A DNA stretch of 64,000 nucleotides from Candidatus Omnitrophica bacterium UBA6215 (lineage in GTDB: Bacteria > Omnitrophota > Gorgyraeia > Pluralincolimonadales > Pluralincolimonadaceae). The stretch covers positions 245,109-309,108 of the forward strand of contig DISH01000004.1 in assembly GCA_002421665.1 (NCBI GenBank), written 5' to 3'. Positions within the stretch are counted from its first letter, which is position 1. Each line of letters begins with the position of its first letter. The notes below the pieces were generated by a model, which was not told the origin of the DNA, ran no database searches, and saw only the letters and a program-made list of their open reading frames with translations. Positions 36,674 to 48,815 of the stretch are shown here, piece by piece. The translations under genes and the position numbers were made by a program.

Positions 36674-38563
36674 TTGTGCGGGATATGCGGTATAGTCGAT
36701 TATAGCGGAAAGCCCGTTGAGAAAGGCGCCGTAGGGAGGATGTGCATGGCCCTTGAGCACAGAGGTCCTGACGGCGAGGGGATATATATAGACCCTCCGG
36801 GTTCAGTCGGCCTGGGGCACAGGAGATTGAGTATAATAGACCTTTCTGACGAAGCTTCACAGCCCATGCATAACGAGGACAGCAGCGTATGGCTTGTCTT
36901 CAACGGCGAGATATATAATTTCCATGAATTGCGTCCCGGATTGGAGAAGAAAGGGCACCGCTTTGTGTCCCACTCGGATACGGAGACGATAGTGCATTTA
37001 TACGAGGAATACGGGGAAGATTGCGTGAACCGTCTGCGCGGGATGTTCGCTTTCGCCATCTGGGATGCCGGCAAGAAGAAGATTTTTGCCGCAAGGGACA
37101 GGGCAGGCAAGAAACCTTTCCTATATTCGTGGGATGGGCAGCGTTTTGTGTTCGCTTCGGAATTTTGCGCGATGCTTGAGAGCGGCAGCGTCCGCAGGGA
37201 CATAGAGGAGAACGCTGTCAGCTATTACATGAGCCTCGGGTATATACCGGCGCCTATGACGATATTCAAGGGTATAAGGAAGCTCATGCCTGCGCATACC
37301 CTTATCGCCGATGCTTCGGGCGTCAGGACCCGGAAATATTGGGACCTCGATTATACCTCTAAATTGCGCATAGGAGAGGACGAAGCTGCGGAGAGGTTCC
37401 TGGAACTTTTCAGGGAAGCGGTAAAGATAAGGCTCTATAGCGATGTGCCGCTCGGGGCTTTCCTAAGCGGCGGCGTAGATTCAAGCTGCGTTGTCGCGAT
37501 GATGAGCGAGTTTACCAGGGTAAAGACCTTCTCGATAGGTTTCGAGGAACAGGATTACAGCGAGATAGAGTACGCGCGCCAGGTATCACGCATCTTCGGG
37601 ACAGAACACCGCGAATTCATAGTAAAGCCCGACGCCCTGGATATAATAAGCCTTCTTACGCAAAGGTACGGCGAGCCGTACGCCGATTCCTCGTGCATAC
37701 CTACGTATTACGTGTCGCAGGAAACAAGGAAATTCGTAACAGTTGCCTTGAACGGTGACGGAGGCGATGAATCGTTCGGCGGATATGAGCGCTACCAGGC
37801 GATGAATGCGGCGGATAAGATAGGCAGGCCGGGCCTTAGGGATATTTCGAGGGTTGTTTCCGGCCTGTTGCCGGATTCGACGGAACCCAAGAGTTTTTCT
37901 AGAAGGGTAAAGCGTTTCCTTGGGAATGCCGGGCTTCCTGCGGCAGAAAGATACCTAAGGTGGGTCGGTATATCCGGCGACATACGGTTGGCAGACCTCT
38001 ATTCGCGTGACTTTGCGGCAAAGACGGATATTAACGCTCCCCTGGAGTTATTGAAGCCGTATTTTTCTATGCCGGGAAAGATGGACCTGCTGGACAGGCT
38101 TCTCAAGGCCGACGTGAACACCTATCTTCCTAACGATTTGCTCGTGAAAGTGGATATTGCAGCCATGGCCAATTCACTGGAAGGGCGATCTCCTTTCCTG
38201 GACCATATGGTCATGGAGTTCGCGGCCGGGCTGCCGTCGTCATACAAGATAAGGGGTTCGATCAAAAAATATATAGTAAAGAAAGCCTTTTCAAACAAGC
38301 TCCCGGGCGCTATACTGGGCAGGAGGAAGATGGGCTTCGGCTTGCCCGTAGGCAGGTGGTTCAGGGGAGAACTGAAAGATTACCTGCGCCAGACATTGCT
38401 TTCGGAAACTTCGTTGGGCAGGGGATATTTTGACCGGGACAAGGTCAGGTCGATGGTCGATTCCCATACGGAAGGCCGCCGCGACCTGTCTTTCCAGTTA
38501 TGGGCCATGCTTATGCTTGAGCTCTGGCATAAAAAATTCATCGACGAGAGGACCGTATGCTGA
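36674..38563 (+). CDS. asnB: asparagine synthase (glutamine-hydrolysing) family amidotransferase
   Basis: N-terminal MCGICGI nucleophile Cys2 (needs the TTG start at 36674), then SGGVDSS PP-loop. Confidence 0.9.
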   Translation: MCGICGIVDYSGKPVEKGAVGRMCMALEHRGPDGEGIYIDPPGSVGLGHRRLSIIDLSDEASQPMHNEDSSVWLVFNGEIYNFHELRPGLEKKGHRFVSHSDTETIVHLYEEYGEDCVNRLRGMFAFAIWDAGKKKIFAARDRAGKKPFLYSWDGQRFVFASEFCAMLESGSVRRDIEENAVSYYMSLGYIPAPMTIFKGIRKLMPAHTLIADASGVRTRKYWDLDYTSKLRIGEDEAAERFLELFREAVKIRLYSDVPLGAFLSGGVDSSCVVAMMSEFTRVKTFSIGFEEQDYSEIEYARQVSRIFGTEHREFIVKPDALDIISLLTQRYGEPYADSSCIPTYYVSQETRKFVTVALNGDGGDESFGGYERYQAMNAADKIGRPGLRDISRVVSGLLPDSTEPKSFSRRVKRFLGNAGLPAAERYLRWVGISGDIRLADLYSRDFAAKTDINAPLELLKPYFSMPGKMDLLDRLLKADVNTYLPNDLLVKVDIAAMANSLEGRSPFLDHMVMEFAAGLPSSYKIRGSIKKYIVKKAFSNKLPGAILGRRKMGFGLPVGRWFRGELKDYLRQTLLSETSLGRGYFDRDKVRSMVDSHTEGRRDLSFQLWAMLMLELWHKKFIDERTVC

Positions 38564-40416
38564 AGAACAACGACATCATATGCATATCATCAATAGATTG
38601 GGATTTTATCTGGCAGGGCCACCAGGAGATAATGTCGGTTTTTGCCGCCAATGGCAACCGTGTCCTCTTCATAGAGAACACCGGGGTCAGGTCCCCGGGC
38701 ATAAGGGATATATCCAGGCTTGGCAAGAGGTTCAGTAATTACTTCAGGGGTGTCAAAGGGATACGCAGGGAATCCGAAAACCTCTACGTATATTCCCCGA
38801 TAGTCCTTCCTTTCCCGTATTCAAGGATAGCCAGGTGGATAAACAAGCAAATACTGCTTTCGGTTATAAAAAGGTGGATGAAGGCGGTCCGGTTCTCCGA
38901 TCCGATAATATGGACGTTCCTGCCTACAGGTACCGCCCTCGATATTATAGAGAACATAAACAGGAAACTCCTTGTCTATTATTGTATAGACAGTTTTGCG
39001 GCCAGCTCTTCATCTGCCAAAAAGATAAAAGCATACGAGAAGAAGCTGATCTCATCCGCTGACCTTGTCTTCGTGACATCGCAGGCTTTGCATGATTATT
39101 GCTCGCAGTTCAGCTCCAGCGTGAGCATGTTCCCGTTCGGCGTTAATATCACGAGTTTCGAGGAAGTCAGGAACCGCGATACCGTTGCACCCCAGGGGAT
39201 GGAAGGGATAAATGGTCCGGTCATAGGCTATGTAGGCGGTATACATAAATGGATAGACCAGCGCCTCGTCAGGGAAGCTGCCCTGAAGCATCCCGAACAT
39301 ACTTTTGTTTTCGTCGGGCCTGTTCAAACCGATGTATCGGAGCTTTCTTCCCTTGCGAATGTAAGGTTCCTGGGGGGCAAGAAACATTCCGAGCTGCCGT
39401 ATTACGTGAAATACTTTTCGGTTTGTATCATACCCTACCTTATGACCGAATATACAAAGAACGTATATCCCACGAAACTGAATGAGTATTTGTCAATGGG
39501 CAAACCGGTCGTTTCCACGGCGCTCCCCGAGGTAATAAGGTTCAACAATGAGAACGGCGGTATAGTCTCCGTAGGCGATGGTACGGACGGGTTCATATCC
39601 AGTATAGAGGAGGCGCTTTTGCCCGGGGCTTCCGCGCTTACAGGCAGGCGCATGGAAGCAGCCGCCCTCAACAGTTGGAACAGGAGGATAGAGGATATGA
39701 GCGGGCTTATAAATGCCCGCATGGAGAGCAAAACCTCCTTGAACGCGAACAGATGGAGAGAGGAGCTGGTATCCTTCTATAAGTCGGCTCGCAGCAGGTT
39801 TATAAAGATCGCCGCGGCCATCGCGGTCCTTTATGTCGCGGTCTTTTACACCCCGCTGGTATGGTACGTGGCCGAGCCCCTGAAGGTCTCGGATGCTCTC
39901 GGGAAGTCTGATGCCATAGTCGTGTTTGCGGGAGGCGTAGGAGAATCCGGACGGGCCGGACAGGGTTCGATGGAGAGGCTCGGCTATGCGGTGAGCCTCT
40001 ACCATGAGGGTTATGCGCCTTACCTTGTGTTCTCATCCGGCTATACCAACGTGTATAGGGAGGCGGATGTGATGAAGGCCGTAGCGGTATCCCTGGGCGT
40101 TCCTTCCTCGCGCATAATCCTCGATGAGGACGCAAGCAATACTTATGAGAACGTCGAGTCCGCCGATGAGATCGCCCGTAAGATGTCCTGGCGAAGGATC
40201 ATGGTGGTCAGTTCGCCTTACCATATGAGGCGCGTTGTCCTGACTTTCAGCAAAAGCGCACCGGGGCTGGATGTAATATGTGCACCGGTACCTCAGAGTT
40301 CTTTTTATTCGCACCGCATGATAGAAGGGCTTCGGCAGACGAACATCAGGCAGATTAAAGCTATTTTACACGAATACCTTAGTATAGTATATTATTGGGC
40401 GAAGGGTTATATTTAA
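38557..40416 (+). CDS. fusion protein: N-terminal GT4-like glycosyltransferase, TM helix, C-terminal DUF218 (SanA/YdcF/ElyC-like) domain
   Basis: GT-B region (IGYVGGIHKWID...GKPVVST), TM helix (FIKIAAAIAVLYVAVFY), then DAIVVFAGG...ENTYENV...VVSSPYHMRR typical of DUF218. Confidence 0.7.
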   Translation: MLKNNDIICISSIDWDFIWQGHQEIMSVFAANGNRVLFIENTGVRSPGIRDISRLGKRFSNYFRGVKGIRRESENLYVYSPIVLPFPYSRIARWINKQILLSVIKRWMKAVRFSDPIIWTFLPTGTALDIIENINRKLLVYYCIDSFAASSSSAKKIKAYEKKLISSADLVFVTSQALHDYCSQFSSSVSMFPFGVNITSFEEVRNRDTVAPQGMEGINGPVIGYVGGIHKWIDQRLVREAALKHPEHTFVFVGPVQTDVSELSSLANVRFLGGKKHSELPYYVKYFSVCIIPYLMTEYTKNVYPTKLNEYLSMGKPVVSTALPEVIRFNNENGGIVSVGDGTDGFISSIEEALLPGASALTGRRMEAAALNSWNRRIEDMSGLINARMESKTSLNANRWREELVSFYKSARSRFIKIAAAIAVLYVAVFYTPLVWYVAEPLKVSDALGKSDAIVVFAGGVGESGRAGQGSMERLGYAVSLYHEGYAPYLVFSSGYTNVYREADVMKAVAVSLGVPSSRIILDEDASNTYENVESADEIARKMSWRRIMVVSSPYHMRRVVLTFSKSAPGLDVICAPVPQSSFYSHRMIEGLRQTNIRQIKAILHEYLSIVYYWAKGYI

Positions 40417-40937: not shown

Positions 40938-41328
40938 CATCCTGTGTTCTGCTCCGACAGAAGCACTTCCATAAGCATCCTTGTTTTCTTAAAAGCTAAG
41001 TACCTTTCAGCCGAAGAGACGCTGGTATCTTGCTGCCATTCAAGCGCCGCAGGCGCTTTGGCGAAGTCGCTGGCGGCGATATCGGCAAAAACTTTTTACG
41101 GCTGTTTCCTTAGCATACTTTCCGAGGAACGCAGGTATTCCGAGTTCTTCTCGGGCAGTCTGGCAGTTCAAAAGTTAAGAGCATTGTTTTCCCGGACGGC
41201 AGGTATCCTCAAAGCTGCCTGCGTATCAAGTAAGGCATGCGGCATGGTATCTTCCGCGAACCGGGCGGTGGGCGCCGTGGGTTGGAAAAAAGCCGTGAAT
41301 GAAAGTTTTTTCTTAGGCTGGTTATACC

Positions 41329-42522
41329 GTGTCTGACGGCAAAACCAGGATACTCAGGATCATCGCGCGTCTCAATGTGGGCGGCCCGGCCATACATACC
41401 ATCCTTTTGACTTCCGCCTTGAACGACGACGCATATGAATCCGTTCTCCTTTGCGGCAGGGTGGAAGATGATGAAAAAGATATGTCGTACCTTGCCGAAA
41501 CAAAGGGCGTGAAGCCTGTCATGATAAGCGGGCTGGGCAGAAAGATAGACCCGATGGGCGATATCAGGGCTTTCGTGCAGATATACAGGTATATAAGGGA
41601 TTTTAAACCGGATATAGTACATACGCATACCGCTAAAGCCGGTGCCTTAGGCCGTATTGCCGCGGTCCTGGCAGGCGTGCCGGTAAGGGTCCACACTTTT
41701 CACGGGCATATCTTCGACGGTTATTTCGGCAGGGTAAAGACATCGATTTTCCTATCGATCGAGAGGGTACTCGCGTTCTTTACCCGTTATATTATAGTCG
41801 TAAGCGACGCGCAAAAACGCGATATATCAGGTAAATACGCGATCGCCGGAGGGGATAAAGTAAGGGTAATAAACCTGGGGCTGGAACTTGAGGAGTTCGC
41901 CGATGACGATTATCCCTCCGGGATAAGAAAAAAATTTGGGATAGGCGCCGGCTCAATAGTGGTGTCCATCGTAGGCCGGCTTGTCCCCATAAAGAACCAC
42001 AGGATGTTCCTTGATGCGGCGCGCAGGTTGGTTGCACAGGCCCCGGGCTTGGATGTAAAATTCCTCGTGGTAGGCGACGGCGAACAAAGACCGTTTCTCG
42101 AGAGATATTCATCGGAGATAGGGCTTGGCGACAGGGTCATATTTTGCGGCTGGGTAGAGGACATGCGGGAAGTATATTCAAGCTCGGATATAATAGCTCT
42201 GACATCTTTGAATGAAGGCACACCGGTCGCCGTGATAGAAGCCATGGCGTCAGGCAGGCCGGTGGTCGCTACCGATGTAGGCGGGGTCAGGGATGTCGTG
42301 GAAGATTCTGTTACGGGTTATCTCGTGCGCTCCGGCGATGACTCCGTTCTTTCCGAGAAGATCATGGAGCTGGCTTCCGACAAGTGCAAGAGGGAATCGT
42401 TCGGAAAGGCAGGCAGGTCGTCAGTAATAAGAAGATATTCGAAAGAACGGTTGGTAGATGACATAAAACGGCTTTACAGGGAAGCGCTTATAGACTATAA
42501 TAAGTGCAAAAAAGGAGTCTAA
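41329..42522 (+). CDS. GT4 family (GT-B) glycosyltransferase
   Basis: KPDIVHTHTAKAG ... EGTPVAVIEAMASGRPVVATDVGG (E-x7-E region). GTG start. Confidence 0.8.
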   Translation: MSDGKTRILRIIARLNVGGPAIHTILLTSALNDDAYESVLLCGRVEDDEKDMSYLAETKGVKPVMISGLGRKIDPMGDIRAFVQIYRYIRDFKPDIVHTHTAKAGALGRIAAVLAGVPVRVHTFHGHIFDGYFGRVKTSIFLSIERVLAFFTRYIIVVSDAQKRDISGKYAIAGGDKVRVINLGLELEEFADDDYPSGIRKKFGIGAGSIVVSIVGRLVPIKNHRMFLDAARRLVAQAPGLDVKFLVVGDGEQRPFLERYSSEIGLGDRVIFCGWVEDMREVYSSSDIIALTSLNEGTPVAVIEAMASGRPVVATDVGGVRDVVEDSVTGYLVRSGDDSVLSEKIMELASDKCKRESFGKAGRSSVIRRYSKERLVDDIKRLYREALIDYNKCKKGV

Positions 42523-42525
42523 ATA

Positions 42526-43491
42526 GTGCATTATCTTATAACCGGCGGAGCCGGTTTTATCGGTTCCCACCTTTCTGACAGGCTGATAAGCGAAGGCCAT
42601 AAGGTTACCGTTCTTGATAATTTTTCCACCGGCAAGTCCGATAACGTAAAGCATCTCGAGAATAAAGCCGGGTTTGAACTGGTCGTGGGCTCTATACTTA
42701 ACGAATTCCTGGTGGATAAGCTCGCGGAACGCTGCGACGCTATTTTTCACCTGGCAGCTGCTGTCGGTGTCGAGTTGATAGTCAACCATCCTTTGGAATC
42801 ACTTACCACGAATATTAAGGGCAGCGAGATAGTCCTTAACATGGCATTCCGTTATCACAAGAAGGTCCTTATAACCTCGACCTCCGAGATATACGGAAAG
42901 AACACGCAAGGGCCCCTTAAGGAGGACCAGGACCGGATACTCGGTTCACCGCTGAAATCAAGATGGAGCTATTCCACCGCTAAGGCCGTCGATGAGATGC
43001 TTGCCTATGTCTACTGGAAGACAAAGGACGTGCCTACGGTCATCGTGCGTCTTTTTAATACCGTTGGTCCCAGGCAGTCCGGCGCCTACGGCATGGTAGT
43101 GCCCAGGTTCGTCAGGCAGGCCCTCGAAGGAAAGGACATAACTGTATACGGTTCCGGCAAGCAGTCGAGGTGTTTCCTGCACGTGAAAGATGTGGTGTCA
43201 GCGCTGCCAAAACTCATAGAGAATCCCAAGGCCTATGGCCAGGTCTTTAATATCGGAAGTCAGGAGGAAGTAACGATAGAAGACCTCGCCCGCAAGGTGA
43301 TCGAAATAACCAAGAGTAAATCGAAGTTGGTCAATATACCGTATGAGAAGGCGTATGAAGAAGGATTCGAGGACATGGAGAGAAGGATCCCGGACACTTC
43401 CAAGATACGCGACCTTATAGGGTTCAAGCCCACGGCCGACCTCAAGGCTATCATAGAAGACGTGGTAAGCTACACGAGGGAAAACAAGTAA
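42526..43491 (+). CDS. NAD-dependent sugar-nucleotide epimerase/dehydratase (GalE/WbpP-like SDR)
   Basis: ITGGAGFIGSHL and YSTAK; about 320 aa. GTG start. Confidence 0.85.
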   Translation: MHYLITGGAGFIGSHLSDRLISEGHKVTVLDNFSTGKSDNVKHLENKAGFELVVGSILNEFLVDKLAERCDAIFHLAAAVGVELIVNHPLESLTTNIKGSEIVLNMAFRYHKKVLITSTSEIYGKNTQGPLKEDQDRILGSPLKSRWSYSTAKAVDEMLAYVYWKTKDVPTVIVRLFNTVGPRQSGAYGMVVPRFVRQALEGKDITVYGSGKQSRCFLHVKDVVSALPKLIENPKAYGQVFNIGSQEEVTIEDLARKVIEITKSKSKLVNIPYEKAYEEGFEDMERRIPDTSKIRDLIGFKPTADLKAIIEDVVSYTRENK

Positions 43492-43493
43492 CC

Positions 43494-45284
43494 GTGAATC
43501 ATGTTTACCTTTTTATCTCCGCATTCCTGTTGTCTTTTCTCGCCACTCCCGCCGTCAAGGCTGTAGCGGGAAGCCTCGGCATAGTAGCAAAGCCCAAAGA
43601 GGACAGATGGCATAAGAAGGTGATTCCCCTTATGGGCGGTATAGCCATATACCTTGCCTTTACGGCTGTTTATGTTGTTTCGACCTGGGGCGGCAAGATG
43701 AACCCGGGTCTCCTGATAGGCGCTACCTCCATATTCATCCTCGGGGTTATCGATGACATAAGAGGCCTGAGCCCGCAAACCAAGCTGATCGGCCAGATCG
43801 TGTGCGCGTCCCTTGCCGTAATTTTCGGCGTTACCATAAAGGTCATACCTTTTGCCGCTATATCCGTGCCTGTTACCATTTTGTGGATGGTAGGGATAAC
43901 CAATTCGTTCAATCTGCTAGATAATATGGACGGCCTTTCTGCGGGTGTTGCGGCGATAGCTTCGATGACGCTCTTCGCCTGTGCCGTGGCCTTGAACAGC
44001 CCGGAGACGGCTGCGGTATCGGTCATACTGGCCGGGGCGGCCACGGGTTTCCTTCCGCACAATTTCCATCCGGCCAAAATATTCATGGGCGATTGCGGCG
44101 CGATGTTCCTGGGTTTTTCGCTTTCGGCCCTGACCATAATGGGTACATGGAAAGAGGCCTCGCACCTGTTTATGGTCCTGCTTATACCGGTGCTAGCATT
44201 GGCGGTGCCTATATTCGATACGCTTTTCGTTGCTATAACCAGGACCATTGACGGCAGGTCTGTAGCAAAAGGGGGGAAGGACCATACCTCGCACAGGATG
44301 GTCTTCCTTGGCTGGCAGGAAAAGAAAGCCGTAACGGCCCTTTATCTCATATCCATACTTTTCGGCGCGGCCGCGTATATATCTCTCCATGTCAAGGTCT
44401 ATGTCAGCGCGATAATAATGTCATTGCTGGTAATGGTGGTATCCGCTTTTGCCATGTTCCTGAACCACTACACCAAGGCTAAGCGCACGCAAAAGGACGG
44501 GATGTCAAAGGATGTCTCGTATTATAAGAACGAATCGGACCTGATCGAGGCGTTGATAAAATACAAGAGAGTGATCTTTGAGGTCGTCTGCGATTTCGTG
44601 CTCATATGTATTGCCTATATCTCCAGTTACATAATTCGTTACGACGGCGTCGTCGACCATTACAATTTCGGGCTTATTGCCAAGTCCCTCCCGATCATTA
44701 TCGTGATCAAGCTGACGGCGTTTTCGGTCAGCGGTGTCTACGGTAATATATGGAGATATATAGGGCTTAACGAACTGCTTAATATAGTAAAGGGGATCCT
44801 CATCGGTTCCGTTACTTCAGTGGTCGCCCTGCTGGTTGCATACAGGTTTGTGGGTTTCTCAAGGATGATATTCATCCTTGATGCAATGGTCCTGCTGATA
44901 CTTATGTCCTCCGTGAGGATAGCTTTCAGGATATTCAGGGAACAGGTCTTCGTCTCCTTCGACGACGGCGGCAGAAGGGTATTGATCTTCGGCGCCGGCG
45001 ATGCGGGCGACGCCTTCCTGAGGGAAGTCAGGAAGAACAGGTCCCTTAGCTATCGTCCCGTGGGTTTTATCGATGACGATATCTCCAAGCAGGGTAGGAG
45101 GATACAGGGTATACCGGTCATAGGAGTTCGTTCGGATATACCCAGGCTTTCCGTAGAGAAGAAGATCGACGAGATAATATTGGCTATTCCCTCGGCTGAC
45201 CGCAAGACAAAGGATGATATTGAGGCCATATGCAGGGAGAGCGGGGTGGAATATCACCAGATAAGCGGGATATACCTTAAGTGA
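43494..45284 (+). CDS. polyprenol-phosphate N-acetylhexosamine-1-phosphate transferase (WecA/MraY family) fused to C-terminal TM + CoA_binding_3-like Rossmann domain
   Basis: VIDDIRGLSP, NSFNLLDNMDGL, FMGDCGAMFLG are the PNPT hallmarks. The C-terminal ~240 aa carry 4 TM helices plus VLIFGAGDAG...YRPVGFIDDD, as in the N-termini of WbaP/CapD-type proteins. Confidence 0.8.
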   Translation: MNHVYLFISAFLLSFLATPAVKAVAGSLGIVAKPKEDRWHKKVIPLMGGIAIYLAFTAVYVVSTWGGKMNPGLLIGATSIFILGVIDDIRGLSPQTKLIGQIVCASLAVIFGVTIKVIPFAAISVPVTILWMVGITNSFNLLDNMDGLSAGVAAIASMTLFACAVALNSPETAAVSVILAGAATGFLPHNFHPAKIFMGDCGAMFLGFSLSALTIMGTWKEASHLFMVLLIPVLALAVPIFDTLFVAITRTIDGRSVAKGGKDHTSHRMVFLGWQEKKAVTALYLISILFGAAAYISLHVKVYVSAIIMSLLVMVVSAFAMFLNHYTKAKRTQKDGMSKDVSYYKNESDLIEALIKYKRVIFEVVCDFVLICIAYISSYIIRYDGVVDHYNFGLIAKSLPIIIVIKLTAFSVSGVYGNIWRYIGLNELLNIVKGILIGSVTSVVALLVAYRFVGFSRMIFILDAMVLLILMSSVRIAFRIFREQVFVSFDDGGRRVLIFGAGDAGDAFLREVRKNRSLSYRPVGFIDDDISKQGRRIQGIPVIGVRSDIPRLSVEKKIDEIILAIPSADRKTKDDIEAICRESGVEYHQISGIYLK

Positions 45285-46759
45285 ACACGCGCGGTAACAG
45301 GATCTGTTCGGGTTGCGACAAGTTCATAGAATACCTCCTTTATACGCTTTTCTTCTTCATATCTTCTTCAAAGAGCGTCCTGGAGGTATTTGCCACCATA
45401 GCCATACTGCTTTGGTTCGTAAAGAAATTCATAGAGTTCAGGGATTTGGCGGCGGTAAGGATATCGGAGTATAAGCCTTCCGCTACGGGAATCAGGTCTT
45501 ACGCGGTTTTCCTGGCCTCGGGGCTAGCTACAATGGTGATGGTCTACGCCGCCATAGTCATGACCATGGGCGTGGTGTCTAAGCATGTTGAGCATGGCTA
45601 TAACCTTTTCGCCCCGCATGTGTTCATACCAATAGTGCTGGCGAGCGCCCTGCTTCTTTCGCTATTCTGCCTTACCATATTTTCGATGGTACACTCCAGA
45701 CAGTTAGGCGCTAACTTAAAGTTGGCTTCCCTGGCGTTCCTCGCGGTAAGCGTTATTACCGCTGGTTTTACGACTTCCAATATAACCATAAGCGGCGGGA
45801 CCCTGATATTCAAGACGATGGAATATTTCCTGCTGTTTTTGGTTATAGTAGATGTCATCAACACACGAGAGAAAGTGGCCAAGGCTGCCATAGCGTTCAT
45901 TGCGCAGGTTTTTATCGTAGGCCTGGACGGGATATACCAGTATTTTTCCGGTCACGATATCTTCAGGCATTTCCCTTTATTCGAGAACATAAAGGTGACC
46001 GCTACCTTCAAGTTCTCCAACAGCGCGGGCACTTTTTTTGCAACCGTCTTGCCGGTCCCTCTATCGCTGGTGCTTTTTAATGCTGTTGGCCGCAGGAAGA
46101 AATTGCTGTTGCTGCTGGTATCGTTTGTCGTTTTTGTTTCCCTTCTTTTGACACAAGCCAGGGCGGCTTGGTTAGGATTTTTTGTCGCGTTCCTTTTTAT
46201 GTGCGTTCTGGCGGGCAGGAAGAAGTTCTTTTCTATTATAGGTGTGTTATCCCTGGTCGTTGTTTTAACGGCCCTATTCGGACCCCAGGGCATAAAGGAC
46301 CAGCTTAAGTCTTTTGCGGAAATAGGCAAGGACCAGTCGAGCCAGGACAGGCTGATAATTTGGGATACGGGGTGGCGGATGTTCACGGACAAGCCTTTGT
46401 TCGGCCTTGGCCTGGGTACTTTCATGAACGAATTCGAAAGATACCGGCCAGCCGGGTATTCGGAGATAGTATATGCCCATAATTGCCTGTTACAAACAGC
46501 CGTCGAGACCGGAATAACTGGTGTGGCCGTGTCTTTGTGGATCGCAGCAGGCATTTTCCTATCGGCCCTAAGGAGATACTTCAGCCAGAAAGATGTTTTT
46601 GTGAAAGCTGTTTCCATAGGTTTCTTGGCGGGAGTGGCAGCGACTCTCGTTAACAGTCTTTTTGACACTAACCTTTATTCCCTTCCTTTGGCCGTTCTCT
46701 TTTGGTCGGTCGCGGGATTGTCGGTGACTAAAATACAAGATAAGCTGCCTGACAATTGA
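45281..46759 (+). CDS. Wzy_C-domain membrane protein (O-antigen ligase WaaL / polymerase / O-oligosaccharyltransferase family)
   Basis: Polytopic; LLTQARAAWLG and periplasmic loop GLGLGTF...YAHNCLLQTAVETGITG typical of Wzy_C. GTG start overlapping the upstream stop. Confidence 0.75.
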   Translation: MNTRGNRICSGCDKFIEYLLYTLFFFISSSKSVLEVFATIAILLWFVKKFIEFRDLAAVRISEYKPSATGIRSYAVFLASGLATMVMVYAAIVMTMGVVSKHVEHGYNLFAPHVFIPIVLASALLLSLFCLTIFSMVHSRQLGANLKLASLAFLAVSVITAGFTTSNITISGGTLIFKTMEYFLLFLVIVDVINTREKVAKAAIAFIAQVFIVGLDGIYQYFSGHDIFRHFPLFENIKVTATFKFSNSAGTFFATVLPVPLSLVLFNAVGRRKKLLLLLVSFVVFVSLLLTQARAAWLGFFVAFLFMCVLAGRKKFFSIIGVLSLVVVLTALFGPQGIKDQLKSFAEIGKDQSSQDRLIIWDTGWRMFTDKPLFGLGLGTFMNEFERYRPAGYSEIVYAHNCLLQTAVETGITGVAVSLWIAAGIFLSALRRYFSQKDVFVKAVSIGFLAGVAATLVNSLFDTNLYSLPLAVLFWSVAGLSVTKIQDKLPDN

Positions 46760-47739
46760 ACCCTAAAAAAATCTTGCTCATAAGGACAGACAGGATCGGC
46801 GAATTGATCTTGACGGCGCCAGCCATAAACTCTGTCCGCGCCGCGTTCCCGGAAGCGGAGATATCGCTTATAGTCTCGGCCTCTTCATTCGAGGCGGTTG
46901 AGGGGATGCGCTCAGTAGATAAGGTCTTGGTTATCGATCCTGCCTCTGAATTCTCGTCCTTAAGGAAAGTGTTGGAGTTCGTTCTCGGCCTGAGAAAGAA
47001 GAACTTCGACATGGCCGTGATATTCAATCCTTCCAAGCTTATGAACTTGGCCGTATTCCTGGCAGGTATCCCTGTAAGGGCGGGATACGACCGGAAGCTC
47101 GGTTTTTTGCTTAACAGGCGTATAGCCGACAGGAAATTCCTTTGCGAAAAGCATGAGGTTGAATACAACCTGGACCTTATAAAGGCGTCCGGCATAGAAC
47201 CTTTGGGCAAAGACCTTTCTTTCGATGTCTTTCCGGCTGATGAGGAAACTGCCGGAGTGATTGCCCGTACCGCAGGACTGTGTTCCCGGAAAAAGTTCAT
47301 TGTCGTGCATGCGGCTACCAGCAACCCCGAGAAAGTCTGGCCTGCCGACCGTTTTGCGACACTATGTAATATGGTTGAAGCCGGGCTGGGAGTGAAGGTG
47401 GTTTTGGCGGGAGGGAAGGATGAGGAGCGGGTATCGCAGGAAGTCAAGGATAAGGCAGGGAACCCTTTTTGTGACCTTACAGGTAAATTGGATTTGAAGG
47501 AATTTGCCGCTCTTTTGAGGATGGCGATCCTGCTGGTCTCGTGTGATTCCGGCCCGGTGCATGTCAGCGTGGCCGTTGGGACGCCGGTAGTCGCACTGTT
47601 CGGCGAATCCAGGCCCGGAGGTTCGTCGCGCAGGTGGGGACCATACGGCACCGGACATACGGTTGTAGGAAAGCCTGCGGTGATCGATATATCCGTTGAA
47701 GAAGTCTTCGAGGCCGTAAAAGCAAGGATATTACAATGA
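46756..47739 (+). CDS. GT9 family LPS heptosyltransferase
   Basis: KILLIRTDRIGELILTAPAINSVR (N-terminal GT9 signature) and C-terminal ...VSCDSGPVHVSVAVGTPVVALFG. TTG start, TTGA overlap. Confidence 0.85.
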   Translation: MNPKKILLIRTDRIGELILTAPAINSVRAAFPEAEISLIVSASSFEAVEGMRSVDKVLVIDPASEFSSLRKVLEFVLGLRKKNFDMAVIFNPSKLMNLAVFLAGIPVRAGYDRKLGFLLNRRIADRKFLCEKHEVEYNLDLIKASGIEPLGKDLSFDVFPADEETAGVIARTAGLCSRKKFIVVHAATSNPEKVWPADRFATLCNMVEAGLGVKVVLAGGKDEERVSQEVKDKAGNPFCDLTGKLDLKEFAALLRMAILLVSCDSGPVHVSVAVGTPVVALFGESRPGGSSRRWGPYGTGHTVVGKPAVIDISVEEVFEAVKARILQ

Positions 47740-48815
47740 GCGGCGGCGGGTACCTTATAATCAATCCTTTCGGGATAGGCGACGTTCTTTTTACTACTCC
47801 CGTGATAGAGTCAATAAAGGAAAGCGGACGGGACAGGAAGATAGGCTACCTCTGCAACCGTAGGACGGAGCCGCTGTTGAGGGCGAACCCTAATGTCAGC
47901 CGGGTATTTGTGTATGAAAAAGACGAGCTCAGGCAGCTCTGGAAGGCGTCGAAACTTAGATTTGTCTCGAAAATGCTGTCGTTTATATCTGAAATAAGGC
48001 GCGAGAATTTTGAAACGGCCATAGACCTTTCCCTCAACAGGGAATACGGTTTCATATGTGTTTTAGCCGGGATAAAGAACAGGATAGGTTTTAATTACAG
48101 GAATAGGGGTATATACCTGACCAAGAAAATAGATACAGAAGGTTACTCCGGAAAACATATAATAGAACATTACCTTGAATTGCTCGAATTAGCCGGCATA
48201 AAGCCTTCAGGGAAAGAGGCCCGTCTTTACATACCTGATGCGGATATGAAATGGGCGCGGGATTTCCTTATGCTCAATAATGTCTCCGAAGACCGGATAC
48301 TTGTCGGCCTGGCACCGGCAGGCGGTGCCAGCTGGGGAAAGGATGCGCGTATCAAGCACTGGCGAATAGACGGTTTCGCCGAAGTAGCCGACAGGATAGC
48401 CGACTCCTTCGGCGCCCGCATAATTCTATTCGGCAGCCCAACTGAGGCCAAAGCCTGCGAGAACATGGCCTCTGTCATGCGTAATAGCCCCATAAATGTT
48501 TGCGGGAAAACGTCGCTGATGCAAGCGGCGGCGCTTTTGAGTAGATGCAGGCTGGTTATAGCTAATGATGGCGGCCTGTTGCATCTAGCGGCGGCAGCCG
48601 GGGCAGGGACGGTGGGTATATTCGGGCCGGTTGACGAAAAGGTCTACGGACAGTATCCCTGCGGCCCCGCCCACAGGACCGTAAGGGAGGAGGTCTCGTG
48701 CCGTCCGTGTTACGTGAATTTCAGGATGAAAGATTGCCCGGACAGGATATGCTTGAGCAGGATAGAACCGGACATGGTCTTTAAAGAGGCATCGGAGGTC
48801 ATTTTACTGAAATGA
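47736..48815 (+). CDS. GT9 family LPS heptosyltransferase (second copy)
   Basis: YLIINPFGIGDVLFTTPVIESIK ... VIANDGGLLHLAAAAGAGTVGIFGP. ATGA overlap. Confidence 0.85.
   Translation: MSGGGYLIINPFGIGDVLFTTPVIESIKESGRDRKIGYLCNRRTEPLLRANPNVSRVFVYEKDELRQLWKASKLRFVSKMLSFISEIRRENFETAIDLSLNREYGFICVLAGIKNRIGFNYRNRGIYLTKKIDTEGYSGKHIIEHYLELLELAGIKPSGKEARLYIPDADMKWARDFLMLNNVSEDRILVGLAPAGGASWGKDARIKHWRIDGFAEVADRIADSFGARIILFGSPTEAKACENMASVMRNSPINVCGKTSLMQAAALLSRCRLVIANDGGLLHLAAAAGAGTVGIFGPVDEKVYGQYPCGPAHRTVREEVSCRPCYVNFRMKDCPDRICLSRIEPDMVFKEASEVILLK

What the first reader, a model, noticed from the sequence alone, without database searches (positions are those of the whole stretch)
43494..45284. Chimeric initiating transferase: WecA-family PNPT catalytic domain followed by the TM + Rossmann (CoA_binding_3-like) module normally found at the N-terminus of WbaP/CapD-type proteins
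Residues 1–~350 contain all the PNPT signatures (DDxxG, NxxNxxDGxDGL, FMGDxG). The next ~240 aa consist of four TM helices plus VLIFGAGDAG...YRPVGFIDDD...IPVIG. In known systems that module precedes either a PHPT catalytic domain or a 4,6-dehydratase domain, but here it ends the protein. A domain shuffle between the two unrelated initiating-transferase superfamilies is unusual.
Basis: seen in the sequence. Interest (0 to 1): 0.6.

Follow-up and report, generated by a model that had tools for sequence, protein, structure and literature searches.

The report
Sugar-priming enzyme carrying a borrowed accessory module
This gene encodes a membrane enzyme that starts cell-surface glycan synthesis (a WecA/WbpL-like transferase) fused to a four-helix plus nucleotide-binding module that normally heads a sugar dehydratase; the fusion is real, conserved in several bacterial phyla and unstudied, and it suggests the module serves the priming step itself.

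Summary
ORF 43494-45284 (596 aa) has an intact PNPT/polytopic-PGT domain (11 TM helices, all catalytic motifs), a disordered linker, four more TM helices and a Rossmann-like PF13727 domain, and then stops. It is not an assembly artefact: the identical ORF lies on 23 independent contigs, and more than 110 homologue clusters share the architecture.

The module is not WbaP-type: pairwise similarity to WcaJ and WbaP is insignificant. It is the N-terminal module of PglF/WbpM/CapD-type dehydratases (E 3e-40). None of the 150 closest representatives among 1.84 billion proteins is a large PHPT.

The architecture is not rare either. It occurs in Omnitrophota, Acidobacteriota, Desulfobacterota, Bacillota, Salinivenus, Chloroflexia and Fibrobacterales. 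Unfused PNPT / module-dehydratase gene pairs exist, as do triple fusions, four of five with a degenerate dehydratase. This points to fusion of neighbouring genes followed by dehydratase loss.

The module is as conserved as the catalytic domain. By analogy with WbaP, I infer it dimerises the enzyme and/or senses uridine nucleotides. New variant of a known kind; moderate interest.

The parts
43494..45284 (+). Whole ORF, 596 aa: PNPT + linker + 4-TMH + nucleotide-binding-like domain. The GTG start lies 2 nt after the stop of the upstream SDR; the stop TGA overlaps the GTG of the next gene.
43494..44474 (+). PNPT (polytopic phosphoglycosyl transferase, MraY/WecA/GPT fold) domain, residues 1-327, 11 TM helices, C-terminus predicted cytoplasmic.
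   Evidence: Pfam PF00953 E 1.6e-35; PDB MraY E 2e-11; Foldseek MraY/GPT with target-normalised TM-score 0.73-0.77; hydropathy; AF2 helices.
43752..43766 (+). DDIRG (D87 D88 ... G91), the Mg2+/catalytic Asp-Asp motif of PNPTs. D87 and D88 are invariant in 116 homologues.
43902..43937 (+). NSFNLLDNMDGL (residues 137-148), PNPT signature loop. N137, N140 and D143-D146 are invariant.
44082..44099 (+). FMGDCG (residues 197-202), PNPT signature. F197-D200 and G202 are invariant.
44280..44297 (+). DHTSHR (residues 263-268) in the basic cytoplasmic loop between TM9 and TM10. D263, H264, S266, H267 and R268 are invariant. This corresponds to the His-rich nucleotide-sugar recognition loop of PNPTs (assignment from general knowledge of MraY/WecA).
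44475..44558 (+). Lys/Arg/Glu-rich linker, residues 328-355. Poorly conserved (13 % identity among distant members) and predicted disordered (pLDDT < 50 for 327-349). This is the fusion junction.
44559..44945 (+). Four-TM-helix bundle, residues 356-484 (AF2 helices 347-382, 389-412, 425-450, 457-483), with invariant K358, D367, G414, Y416, W420, Y422 (GxYxxxWRY cytoplasmic loop), S456, R475, R479 and E483.
44946..45281 (+). Soluble Rossmann-like alpha/beta domain (PF13727 'CoA_binding_3', the DUF / nucleotide-binding domain of WbaP and PglF), residues 485-596. It carries the invariant G500-A-G502-x-x-G505 loop (nt 44991-45008) and F525-x-D527-D528 at the end of strand 2 (nt 45066-45080).
   Evidence: Pfam; 3nkl E 5e-8; Foldseek 3nkl rmsd 1.2-1.3 A over 98 columns at 33 % identity, and WbaP 8t53 over 253 columns; conservation.
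42526..43491 (+). Upstream extended-SDR gene, UXS/ArnA-like (STSEIYG...YSTAK). A homologue (344-516 bits) lies upstream of the PNPT-module gene in 10 of 20 examined loci from four phyla (with a GT4 gene between in L003), and a partial copy lies upstream in one more (L009). It is the probable supplier of the UDP-sugar donor.
41329..42522 (+). GT4-family glycosyltransferase, a frequent upstream neighbour of the PNPT-module gene in other phyla.
45281..46759 (+). Wzy_C (O-antigen ligase/polymerase-like) membrane protein, translationally coupled downstream. A homologue lies downstream in 6 other loci.
46756..48815 (+). Two GT9 (heptosyltransferase-family) genes, indicating an LPS-core-type context.

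Best explanation
The gene encodes a functional initiating phosphoglycosyl transferase of the polytopic (PNPT, WecA/WbpL-like) superfamily. It transfers a UDP-activated (probably N-acetyl-hexosamine-type) sugar-1-phosphate to polyprenyl phosphate, releasing UMP, and so primes an LPS/O-antigen-like glycan in a Candidatus Omnitrophota bacterium. Its C-terminal 240 residues are the 4-TM-helix + nucleotide-binding module that normally forms the N-terminus of membrane-bound PglF/WbpM/CapD-type UDP-GlcNAc 4,6-dehydratases. The architecture most probably arose when a PNPT gene fused with the module-dehydratase gene next to it (the wbpL-wbpM arrangement) and the dehydratase domain then decayed and was lost. 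The module was kept under purifying selection as strong as that on the catalytic domain. Inferred mechanism: the module sits beside the PNPT in the membrane with its Rossmann-like domain in the cytoplasm, and acts as an accessory unit that (a) promotes oligomerisation and/or (b) binds uridine nucleotides (UMP is the product of the PNPT reaction too) to tune priming activity, as was shown for the homologous module of WbaP. Shown here: the domain composition, topology, conservation, affinity of the module, phyletic spread, the existence of unfused and triple-fused forms, and gene context. Inferred: enzymatic activity, donor sugar, the direction of evolution, and the regulatory/dimerising role.
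For: Identity and integrity: (both Pfam domains above threshold, all PNPT motifs invariant, MraY/GPT fold, 3nkl/WbaP-like soluble domain). Topology is coherent: the PNPT has 11 TM helices with all catalytic loops and the basic linker on one side, followed by an even number (4) of helices. Not an artefact. The module is PglF/WbpM-type. Fusion-then-loss: (i) an unfused adjacent PNPT (357 aa) and module+dehydratase (649 aa) lie 4 bp apart in Ampullimonas aquatilis, with the same order in a P. aeruginosa O-antigen locus and in Acinetobacter KL4 (qnr-itrB-gdr, PMC3628348); (ii) there are five PNPT+module+dehydratase proteins; (iii) four of them have lost the PglF catalytic signature (STDK...TKR becomes STSK, SIEK, SSIK or SSMK, with TRR in three of the four) while P0264 keeps it; (iv) in a PNPT-domain tree, 89 of 91 fused proteins, including the four degenerate triple fusions, form one clade with no plain PNPT inside (bootstrap 65), whereas P0264 groups with the unfused Ampullimonas PNPT (bootstrap 100) and is collinear with both Ampullimonas genes. 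Selection on the module: information content is 3.10 (4-TMH) and 2.93 (alpha/beta) bits per column against 3.04 (PNPT) and 2.06 (linker), and the GAGxxG and FxDD motifs are invariant. Functional analogy: in WbaP the homologous DUF mediates dimerisation, binds UMP/UDP/UTP, and UMP inhibits the enzyme with IC50 4.1 uM; the same 4-TMH+DUF is noted in PglF and Cap5D (PMC10942596). PglF lacking residues 1-130 is catalytically active (PMC11257628), so the membrane part of the module is accessory. Context: GT4, UXS-like SDR, Wzy_C and GT9 genes, translationally coupled.
Against: No experiment exists on any member, so activity, donor sugar and any nucleotide binding by this module are inferred. The WbaP dimer relies on a beta-hairpin after the DUF; here the protein ends right after the DUF, so a WbaP-like domain swap cannot occur. 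The module is only remotely related to the WbaP module, so transfer of the UMP-binding result is a long extrapolation, and no ligand is known for PglF-type modules. The module tree is unresolved (bootstraps mostly below 30), and the position of the degenerate triple fusions inside the main clade is unresolved, so 'dehydratase lost' versus 'dehydratase regained' rests on parsimony and on the degenerate state of those domains. The closest plain PNPTs (Chloroflexota/Wallbacteria clade), and 60 of the 62 plain-PNPT loci, have no module-dehydratase neighbour within 6 kb. The WecA equivalog score is far below cut-off (107.7 vs 326), so the substrate cannot be assigned.
Confidence: 0.6

Rival explanations
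1. Scaffold or 'Rosetta-stone' reading. The module's real job, in WbpM/PglF as well, is to dock UDP-sugar-modifying enzymes to the PNPT so that the modified donor is channelled to the priming step. In this protein it recruits the soluble UXS-like SDR encoded immediately upstream (and/or the GT4), replacing the lost covalently attached dehydratase.
For: Recurrent independent fusions of PNPT with module-dehydratase proteins are classic evidence of physical or functional coupling. An SDR homologue (344-516 bits) lies upstream of the fused gene in 10 of 20 loci from four phyla (a partial copy in one more), often together with the GT4. The SDR stop and the PNPT start are 2 nt apart.
Against: Operon adjacency is expected for any donor-synthesis enzyme and does not require contact. 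The invariant GxGxxG...DD pocket argues for a small-molecule ligand, not only a protein-docking surface. About half of the loci lack the SDR next to the gene. This reading is not exclusive of the regulatory one.
Confidence: 0.2
2. One reading: a chimera made by shuffling the N-terminal module of a WbaP-type PHPT (monotopic PGT) onto a PNPT, that is, an exchange between the two initiating-transferase superfamilies.
For: NCBIfam PHPT models (EPS_sugtrans 82.5 bits, WcaJ_sugtrans 78.3 bits) match residues 366-591 through their N-terminal halves. The module fold matches WbaP 8t53. All PF13727 modules are homologous.
Against: Pairwise similarity to WcaJ and WbaP is not significant, versus E 3e-40 to a PglF-type module. 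There are 0 large PHPTs among the 150 nearest representatives of 1.84e9 proteins and none among the annotated plasmid hits listed. Triple fusions carry a PglF-type dehydratase, not a PHPT, after the module.
Confidence: 0.04
3. Evolutionary relic: the module is a non-functional leftover of a PNPT-WbpM fusion, on its way to being lost like the dehydratase domain.
For: The dehydratase domain did decay in related proteins. One Chloroflexia homologue has a truncated module and one Blastocatellia MAG has the gene split.
Against: The module is as conserved as the catalytic domain across 116 sequences, while the linker is free to vary. There are 25 invariant positions in the module, including the nucleotide-binding signature. 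It is retained at full length in at least six phyla.
Confidence: 0.04
4. The four-helix bundle handles the lipid carrier. It binds or presents polyprenyl phosphate, or hands the Und-PP-sugar to the next enzyme or flippase, and the soluble domain is secondary.
For: Invariant charged residues lie within or at the ends of the module helices (K358, D367, R475, R479, E483), and the 4-TMH part has the highest information content of the whole protein (3.10 bits per column). The module accompanies three different enzymes that all act at the polyprenyl-phosphate priming step or just before it.
Against: There is no experimental or structural evidence for lipid binding by this bundle. PNPTs have their own polyprenyl-phosphate site. 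In PglF the bundle is dispensable for catalysis.
Confidence: 0.1
5. Assembly or annotation artefact: two genes joined by a mis-assembly or a sequencing frameshift.
For: None, beyond the rarity of the architecture in characterised proteins.
Against: The identical ORF lies on 23 contigs from independent samples and assemblers. 116 collinear homologues of 581-609 aa exist, and the same architecture occurs in many phyla.
Confidence: 0.01

Closest known systems
WecA / WbpL / TagO-type PNPTs (polytopic phosphoglycosyl transferases, Pfam PF00953)
   Same: Residues 1-327: same fold (MraY/GPT-like), 11 TM helices as I recall for WecA, all catalytic motifs present, and an O-antigen/LPS-type gene context.
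   Different: Characterised members stop after the last TM helix (about 340-370 aa); this one continues for 270 residues into a 4-TMH + Rossmann-like module. It scores far below the WecA equivalog cut-off (107.7 vs 326 bits) and is only 30 % identical to P. aeruginosa WbpL over 191 aa, so the donor sugar is unknown.
WbpM / PglF / CapD (Cap5D) / Gdr-type membrane-bound UDP-GlcNAc 4,6-dehydratases (PF13727 + PF02719)
   Same: Residues 356-596 are homologous, end to end, to their N-terminal 4-TMH + DUF module (E 3e-40 to P0207; 73 bits to WbpM; 3nkl rmsd 1.2-1.3 A). In classical loci these genes sit immediately downstream of the PNPT gene.
   Different: The SDR dehydratase domain (Polysacc_synt_2) is absent, and the module is at the C-terminus of another enzyme instead of at the N-terminus of its own.
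WbaP / WcaJ / CpsE-type large monotopic PGTs (PF13727 + PF02397)
   Same: An initiating transferase carrying a 4-TMH + nucleotide-binding accessory module; UMP is the reaction product in both. This is the only family in which the module has been studied experimentally (dimerisation, UMP/UDP/UTP binding).
   Different: The catalytic domain is unrelated (monotopic Bac_transf versus polytopic PNPT). The module precedes the catalytic domain there and follows it here. There is no beta-hairpin after the DUF. Sequence similarity of the modules is not significant in pairwise comparison.
PNPT + module + dehydratase triple fusions (P0105, P0123, P0130, P0131, P0264) and small-PHPT + module + dehydratase fusions (P0226 and others), uncharacterised metagenomic proteins
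   Same: Same PNPT-linker-module junction. The first four belong to the same PNPT clade as the window protein.
   Different: They retain a C-terminal PglF-like SDR domain (degenerate in four, apparently intact in P0264). The small-PHPT fusions use the other PGT superfamily at the N-terminus.

Membership tests
PNPT / polytopic PGT superfamily (PF00953; MraY, WecA, WbpL, GPT) | Profile match above the curated threshold | tested here: met
   PF00953 122.9 bits against a cut-off of 27.
PNPT / polytopic PGT superfamily (PF00953; MraY, WecA, WbpL, GPT) | Catalytic motifs DDxxG, NxxNxxDxxDGL, FMGDxG and the His-containing cytoplasmic loop | tested here: met
   D87 D88, N137...L148, F197-G202 and D263 H264 S266 H267 R268 are present and invariant in 116 homologues.
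PNPT / polytopic PGT superfamily (PF00953; MraY, WecA, WbpL, GPT) | 10-11 TM helix MraY-like fold | tested here: met
   AF2 model (pLDDT 81); Foldseek hits to MraY and GPT with target-normalised TM-score 0.73-0.77, E about 1e-9.
PNPT / polytopic PGT superfamily (PF00953; MraY, WecA, WbpL, GPT) | Transfer of sugar-1-phosphate from a UDP-sugar to polyprenyl phosphate | not testable with these tools
   Requires an enzyme assay.
WecA proper (UDP-GlcNAc:Und-P GlcNAc-1-P transferase, TIGR02380 equivalog) | Score above the equivalog cut-off | tested here: not met
   107.7 bits against a cut-off of 326.05. It is a PNPT but not demonstrably a WecA orthologue.
PF13727 4-TMH + DUF ('CoA_binding_3', nucleotide-binding) accessory module | Profile match above threshold, preceded by four TM helices | tested here: met
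   PF13727 49.8 bits against a cut-off of 25; helices 347-382, 389-412, 425-450 and 457-483.
PF13727 4-TMH + DUF ('CoA_binding_3', nucleotide-binding) accessory module | Rossmann-like soluble domain superposable on solved members | tested here: met
   3nkl rmsd 1.2-1.3 A over 98 columns at 33 % identity; WbaP 8t53 over 253 columns, E 8e-4.
PF13727 4-TMH + DUF ('CoA_binding_3', nucleotide-binding) accessory module | Binding of uridine nucleotides and allosteric effect on the attached enzyme (shown only for WbaP) | not testable with these tools
   The GAGxxG and FxDD signatures are invariant, which is compatible with nucleotide binding but does not prove it.
PF13727 4-TMH + DUF ('CoA_binding_3', nucleotide-binding) accessory module | Beta-hairpin after the DUF that mediates the domain-swapped dimer (WbaP) | tested here: not met
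   The protein ends at residue 596, directly after strand 586-589 and helix 590-595. This feature is also absent in EpsZ according to PMC12802240.
Large monotopic PGT (WbaP/WcaJ type) | Bac_transf (PF02397) catalytic domain C-terminal to the module | tested here: not met
   No PF02397 hit; the ORF stops after the module.
Large monotopic PGT (WbaP/WcaJ type) | Module most similar to those of other large PHPTs | tested here: not met
   WcaJ E 1.3 and WbaP E 0.35; 0 of the 150 nearest representatives are of this type.
PglF/WbpM/CapD-type membrane dehydratase | N-terminal 4-TMH + DUF module of this subtype | tested here: met
   134 bits, 30 % identity over 238 aa with P0207; 73 bits with WbpM; all annotated plasmid hits listed are of this type.
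PglF/WbpM/CapD-type membrane dehydratase | Polysacc_synt_2 SDR domain with the catalytic S/T-D-K ... K signature | tested here: not met
   The domain is absent. The protein is therefore not a member, although its module derives from this family.

The most novel reading that the evidence does not exclude
[quoted passage not shown] In classical WbpM/PglF/CapD proteins its true role would then be to dock onto and control the neighbouring initiating transferase (a WbpL-WbpM complex), not to serve the dehydratase. The PNPT-module proteins would be the Rosetta-stone proof: once fused, the PNPT kept the module and discarded the dehydratase.
Probability: 0.3. Interest if true: 0.7.

Novelty: new variant of a known kind. 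Interest (0 to 1): 0.45.

Why it matters
The role of the 4-TMH + DUF module has been an open question for WbaP-type transferases and for PglF/WbpM/CapD dehydratases. The 2024 WbaP cryo-EM study calls its presence in two functionally unrelated enzyme classes 'puzzling'. A third host, the polytopic PGT superfamily, changes the picture: the module is kept under strong selection after its original dehydratase partner was lost. This indicates that the module's function is tied to the polyprenyl-phosphate priming step and not to dehydratase chemistry. It also predicts a physical WbpL-WbpM-type partnership in classical O-antigen and capsule loci of pathogens (Pseudomonas, Acinetobacter, Staphylococcus, Campylobacter). 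Finally, it offers natural constructs (with an intact, degenerate or absent dehydratase domain) for dissecting what the module does. If the module is only a dimerisation aid, the finding is a modest addition to the catalogue of PGT architectures.

Tried and rejected
(1) Assembly or frameshift fusion: rejected.

(2) Lost downstream domain: rejected. The stop codon overlaps the start of the next gene, and no dehydratase or PHPT remnant exists anywhere in the 64-kb window.

(3) WbaP-type origin of the module: rejected.

(4) NJ tree of the module to polarise evolution: the backbone is unresolved (bootstraps mostly below 30). It was used only for the well-supported groups.

(5) The upstream SDR as an orthologue of the WbpK/WbpV/Qnr 4-reductases, which would have made the locus a straight wbpJ-K-L-M equivalent: rejected. 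It is only 20 % identical (36 bits) to the P. aeruginosa SDR at that position, and it is UXS/ArnA-like instead. GT4 and PNPT similarity to the Pseudomonas genes is at family level only.

(6) The expectation that the nearest plain PNPTs would have a module-dehydratase neighbour: not met. Only L019 does, among 62 plain-PNPT loci.

(7) Context of the triple fusion P0105: uninformative.

(8) AFDB50 fold search, to find named UniProt members: the library was unavailable.

(9) Literature searches for the PF00953+PF13727 architecture, polyPGT fusions and the Pfam names found no description. The library covers only open-access papers and bioRxiv.

(10) Homodimer or complex modelling was not possible with the single-chain predictor.
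Full report
1. THE OBSERVATION

- Pfam finds Glycos_transf_4 (residues 72-217, E 1.6e-35) and CoA_binding_3 (residues 437-585, E 5.3e-13), both above their gathering scores.
- NCBIfam matches the WecA model over residues 7-330. It matches only the N-terminal half of the large-PHPT models (EPS_sugtrans positions 2-222 of 445) over residues 366-591.
The one detail to correct is that the second PNPT motif reads NSFNLLDNMDGL, not ...DGxDGL.

The membrane topology is coherent.
- Hydropathy and the AlphaFold2 model (pLDDT 81, pTM 0.71) give 11 TM helices for the PNPT part.
- All catalytic loops and a Lys/Arg-rich, disordered linker (328-355) lie on the same side of the membrane.
- Four more helices follow (347-483), then a five-stranded alpha/beta domain (494-595).
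- The arrangement is topologically consistent: an 11-helix PNPT ends in the cytoplasm, and a four-helix bundle returns the chain there. A 10-helix MraY could not accept the module in this way.

The ORF is not an artefact.
- The identical protein is called on 23 contigs from independent ENA, Logan and NCBI assemblies, with the same neighbours.
- 116 full-length homologues (581-609 aa, 43-81 % identity) are collinear.
- The stop TGA overlaps the GTG of the next gene, so nothing was lost downstream.

2. WHAT THE TWO HALVES ARE

The N-terminal part has the MraY/GPT fold (Foldseek target-normalised TM-score 0.73-0.77; MraY E 2e-11 by sequence). All PNPT catalytic residues are invariant in the family. 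It scores far below the WecA equivalog cut-off (107.7 vs 326 bits), so it is a PNPT of unassigned donor specificity.

The soluble C-terminal domain superposes on 3nkl at 1.2-1.3 A (33 % identity over 98 columns). 3nkl is the isolated N-terminal domain of a Vibrio fischeri protein that I take to be WbpM-like, from its deposited name (UDP-D-quinovosamine 4-dehydrogenase) and its similarity to this module. The whole module aligns with WbaP 8t53 over 253 columns.

3. WHICH KIND OF MODULE

All PF13727 modules are homologous, but this one belongs to the PglF/WbpM/CapD subtype, not the WbaP subtype.

Pairwise comparisons of the module (residues 355-596):

| Compared with | Result |
|---|---|
| P0207 (module + Polysacc_synt_2) | 134 bits, 30 % identity over 238 aa, one gap, E 3e-40 |
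| P. aeruginosa WbpM | 73 bits, E 1e-17 |
| 3nkl | E 5e-8 |
| E. coli WcaJ | E 1.3 (not significant) |
| S. enterica WbaP | E 0.35 (not significant) |

An exhaustive phmmer search of the module against 1.84 billion representatives gave 12,009 hits at E <= 1e-3. I classified the best 150 with local domain probes and Pfam:

| Architecture | Representatives |
|---|---|
| PNPT + module | 79 |
| PNPT + module + dehydratase | 4 |
| module + dehydratase | 17 |
| small PHPT + module + dehydratase | 4 |
| module only (mostly fragments) | 46 |
| module + PHPT (WbaP type) | 0 |

A tblastn of the module against 72,556 plasmids gave 392 records. Every annotated hit in the top 40 and in 45 rows spread down the ranking (61 annotated hits in all) is an 'NDP-sugar epimerase/dehydratase' or 'polysaccharide biosynthesis protein'. 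They include P. aeruginosa and the Shigella sonnei pINV O-antigen locus, and none is a sugar transferase.

4. HOW COMMON IT IS

In the 5.8-billion-protein collection, 116 of the best 120 clusters are full-length homologues (581-609 aa) that carry both Pfam domains, mostly from Candidatus Omnitrophota. The window protein is identical to MAG protein WC512_04975.

A scan of one genome per GTDB species found single ORFs of 583-647 aa with PNPT + module and no dehydratase. They occur in:
- Omnitrophota
- Acidobacteriota (Pyrinomonadaceae, Blastocatellia, Terriglobales)
- Desulfobacterota
- Bacillota (Heliomicrobium)
- Salinivenus
- Fibrobacterales
- Chloroflexia, as a truncated version of 526 aa

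No paper in the searchable library describes the architecture.

5. ORIGIN

Three states of the same parts exist.

(i) Unfused. In Ampullimonas aquatilis LMG 28208, a 357-aa PNPT gene is followed 4 bp later by a 649-aa module+dehydratase gene. A P. aeruginosa O-antigen locus has the order glycosyltransferase - SDR - PNPT (339 aa) - module+dehydratase (665 aa). Acinetobacter KL4 has qnr, itrB and gdr in proximity (PMC3628348).

(ii) Triple fusions of PNPT + module + dehydratase: P0105, P0123, P0130, P0131 and P0264.

(iii) PNPT + module, as in the window.

The dehydratase domain of P0105 is a clear PglF homologue (5bju, E 3e-37). Aligned to PglF and to intact relatives, four of the five triple fusions have lost the catalytic signature:
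- PglF and intact relatives read STDK...MG.TKR.
- P0123 reads STSK...TRR.
- P0130 reads SIEK...SKR.
- P0131 reads SSIK...TRR.
- P0105 reads SSMK...TRR.
- Only P0264 (SSDK...TKR) looks intact.

The positions concerned are among those varied in the deposited PglF mutant structures. From my own knowledge, they are the catalytic Thr/Asp/Lys.

In a bootstrapped NJ tree of the PNPT domain (149 sequences), 89 of 91 fused proteins form one clade with no plain PNPT inside it (bootstrap 65). That clade includes the four degenerate triple fusions. Its sister (bootstrap 93) is a small clade of plain PNPTs from Chloroflexota and Wallbacteria.

P0264 instead groups with the unfused Ampullimonas PNPT (bootstrap 100). 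It is collinear with both Ampullimonas genes, at 33 % and 42 % identity. The Fibrobacterales protein is a further outlier. Fusion has therefore happened at least two or three times.

The simplest history of the main clade is: PNPT gene + neighbouring module-dehydratase gene, then a triple fusion, then decay of the dehydratase, then its loss.

Caveats:
- The module tree is unresolved.
- The position of the triple fusions within the main clade is unresolved.
- The closest plain PNPTs have no module-dehydratase neighbour within 6 kb.

6. IS THE MODULE FUNCTIONAL?

Yes, by the criterion of selection:

| Region | Information (bits/column) | Mean identity to the window protein, 84 distant members |
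|---|---|---|
| PNPT | 3.04 | 48.7 % |
| 4-TMH bundle | 3.10 | 43.6 % |
| alpha/beta domain | 2.93 | 46.4 % |
| linker | 2.06 | 13.1 % |

Twenty-five positions in the module are invariant. They include G500-A-G502-x-x-G505 and F525-x-D527-D528, which form the classical glycine-rich loop plus the acidic end of strand 2 of a nucleotide-binding Rossmann fold. They also include a GxYxxxWRY cytoplasmic loop in the bundle.

7. HOW IT MOST LIKELY WORKS

Shown: an intact PNPT active site facing the cytoplasm, and an attached, conserved 4-TMH + Rossmann-like module also facing the cytoplasm.

The operon context consists of:
- a GT4 glycosyltransferase;
- a UXS/ArnA-like SDR (E 7e-56 to human UXS), with 2 nt between its stop and the PNPT start;
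- a Wzy_C ligase/polymerase-like protein whose start overlaps the PNPT stop;
- two GT9 enzymes.

The SDR and GT4 homologues accompany the fused gene in several phyla.

Inferred: the enzyme primes a polyprenyl-diphosphate-linked glycan for an LPS/O-antigen-type structure, using a UDP-sugar supplied or modified by the SDR, and releases UMP.

For the module, the only experimental data are on S. enterica WbaP. There the DUF forms most of the dimer interface, binds UMP/UDP/UTP, and UMP inhibits the enzyme with IC50 4.1 uM. The authors propose a 'one-size-fits-all' feedback by the common product UMP, and note the same module in PglF and Cap5D (PMC10942596). PglF without residues 1-130 is active (PMC11257628), so the membrane part is accessory.

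Because PNPTs also release UMP, I consider the following the most likely mechanism: the module acts as an oligomerisation and/or uridine-nucleotide-sensing unit that tunes priming activity.

Points against:
- The WbaP beta-hairpin that makes the swapped dimer is absent here.
- The modules are only distantly related.
- No ligand is known for the PglF subtype.

The main rival, which is not exclusive, is a scaffold role: docking the soluble SDR or GT4 to the PNPT. Recurrent PNPT-dehydratase fusion is Rosetta-stone-type evidence for a physical partnership. Relic, artefact and WbaP-shuffle readings are disfavoured (sections 1, 3 and 6).

8. COMPARISON WITH WHAT IS KNOWN, AND NOVELTY

- The protein is a member of the PNPT superfamily (all sequence and fold criteria met; activity untested), but not demonstrably WecA.
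- It carries a genuine PF13727 module of the PglF/WbpM subtype.
- It is not a large monotopic PGT (no Bac_transf domain).
- It is not a PglF-type dehydratase (no SDR domain).

The architecture is already visible in precomputed Pfam annotations of public proteins, so it is not a new sequence discovery. I found no description or experiment, and the evolutionary route and its implication for the module's role appear unreported. I rate it a new variant of a known kind, with interest 0.45. It is not categorically new, but it bears directly on an open question about the 4-TMH+DUF module and it yields testable predictions.

Noticed in passing
P0164 (744 aa; homologue found, Pfam): A PglF-type module+dehydratase protein with a C-terminal response-regulator receiver domain. 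[quoted passage not shown]
   Followed up: no
P0226, P0237, P0247, P0261 (825-890 aa): Tri-domain proteins with a small PHPT (Bac_transf) at the N-terminus followed by the module and a PglF-type dehydratase. The same module-dehydratase unit has therefore also fused to the other PGT superfamily, on the same side.
   Followed up: partly
P0105, P0123, P0130, P0131: The dehydratase domains of these PNPT+module+dehydratase proteins keep the GxxGxxG NAD motif but have lost the catalytic Asp and, in three of the four, the Lys of TKR. They may be pseudo-enzymes or nucleotide-binding relics.
   Followed up: partly
window 42526-43491 and homologues in L002-L005, L008, L010, L011, L016, L018, L032 (partial in L009): A UXS/ArnA-like extended SDR (STSEIYG...YSTAK; 7e-56 to human UDP-glucuronate decarboxylase; best NCBIfam hit is the LegB-type 4,6-dehydratase, below cut-off) is co-conserved upstream of the fused PNPT across phyla. 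Its product, and hence the primed sugar, is unknown.
   Followed up: partly
window 38557-40416: A 619-aa fusion of a GT1 (TuaH-like) glycosyltransferase with a DUF218/ElyC-like domain, conserved in another Omnitrophota genome (L003, 742 bits).
   Followed up: no
L032 1389-3273 (Blastocatellia MAG) and L017 5986-7566 (Chloroflexia MAG): In L032 the PNPT and the module lie in two overlapping ORFs (frameshift, pseudogene or sequencing error). In L017 the protein is 526 aa with a truncated module. These are possible cases of ongoing module loss.
   Followed up: no
window 1-64000: About 51 of 55 long ORFs lie on the + strand, tightly packed or overlapping, and GC skew is positive in every 2-kb window. 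The whole 64 kb looks like one co-oriented glycan/envelope biosynthesis region.
   Followed up: no
window 40944-41336: A 130-aa GTG ORF between the DUF4330 gene and the GT4 gene. It has no Pfam hit but is called as a gene in independent assemblies.
   Followed up: no
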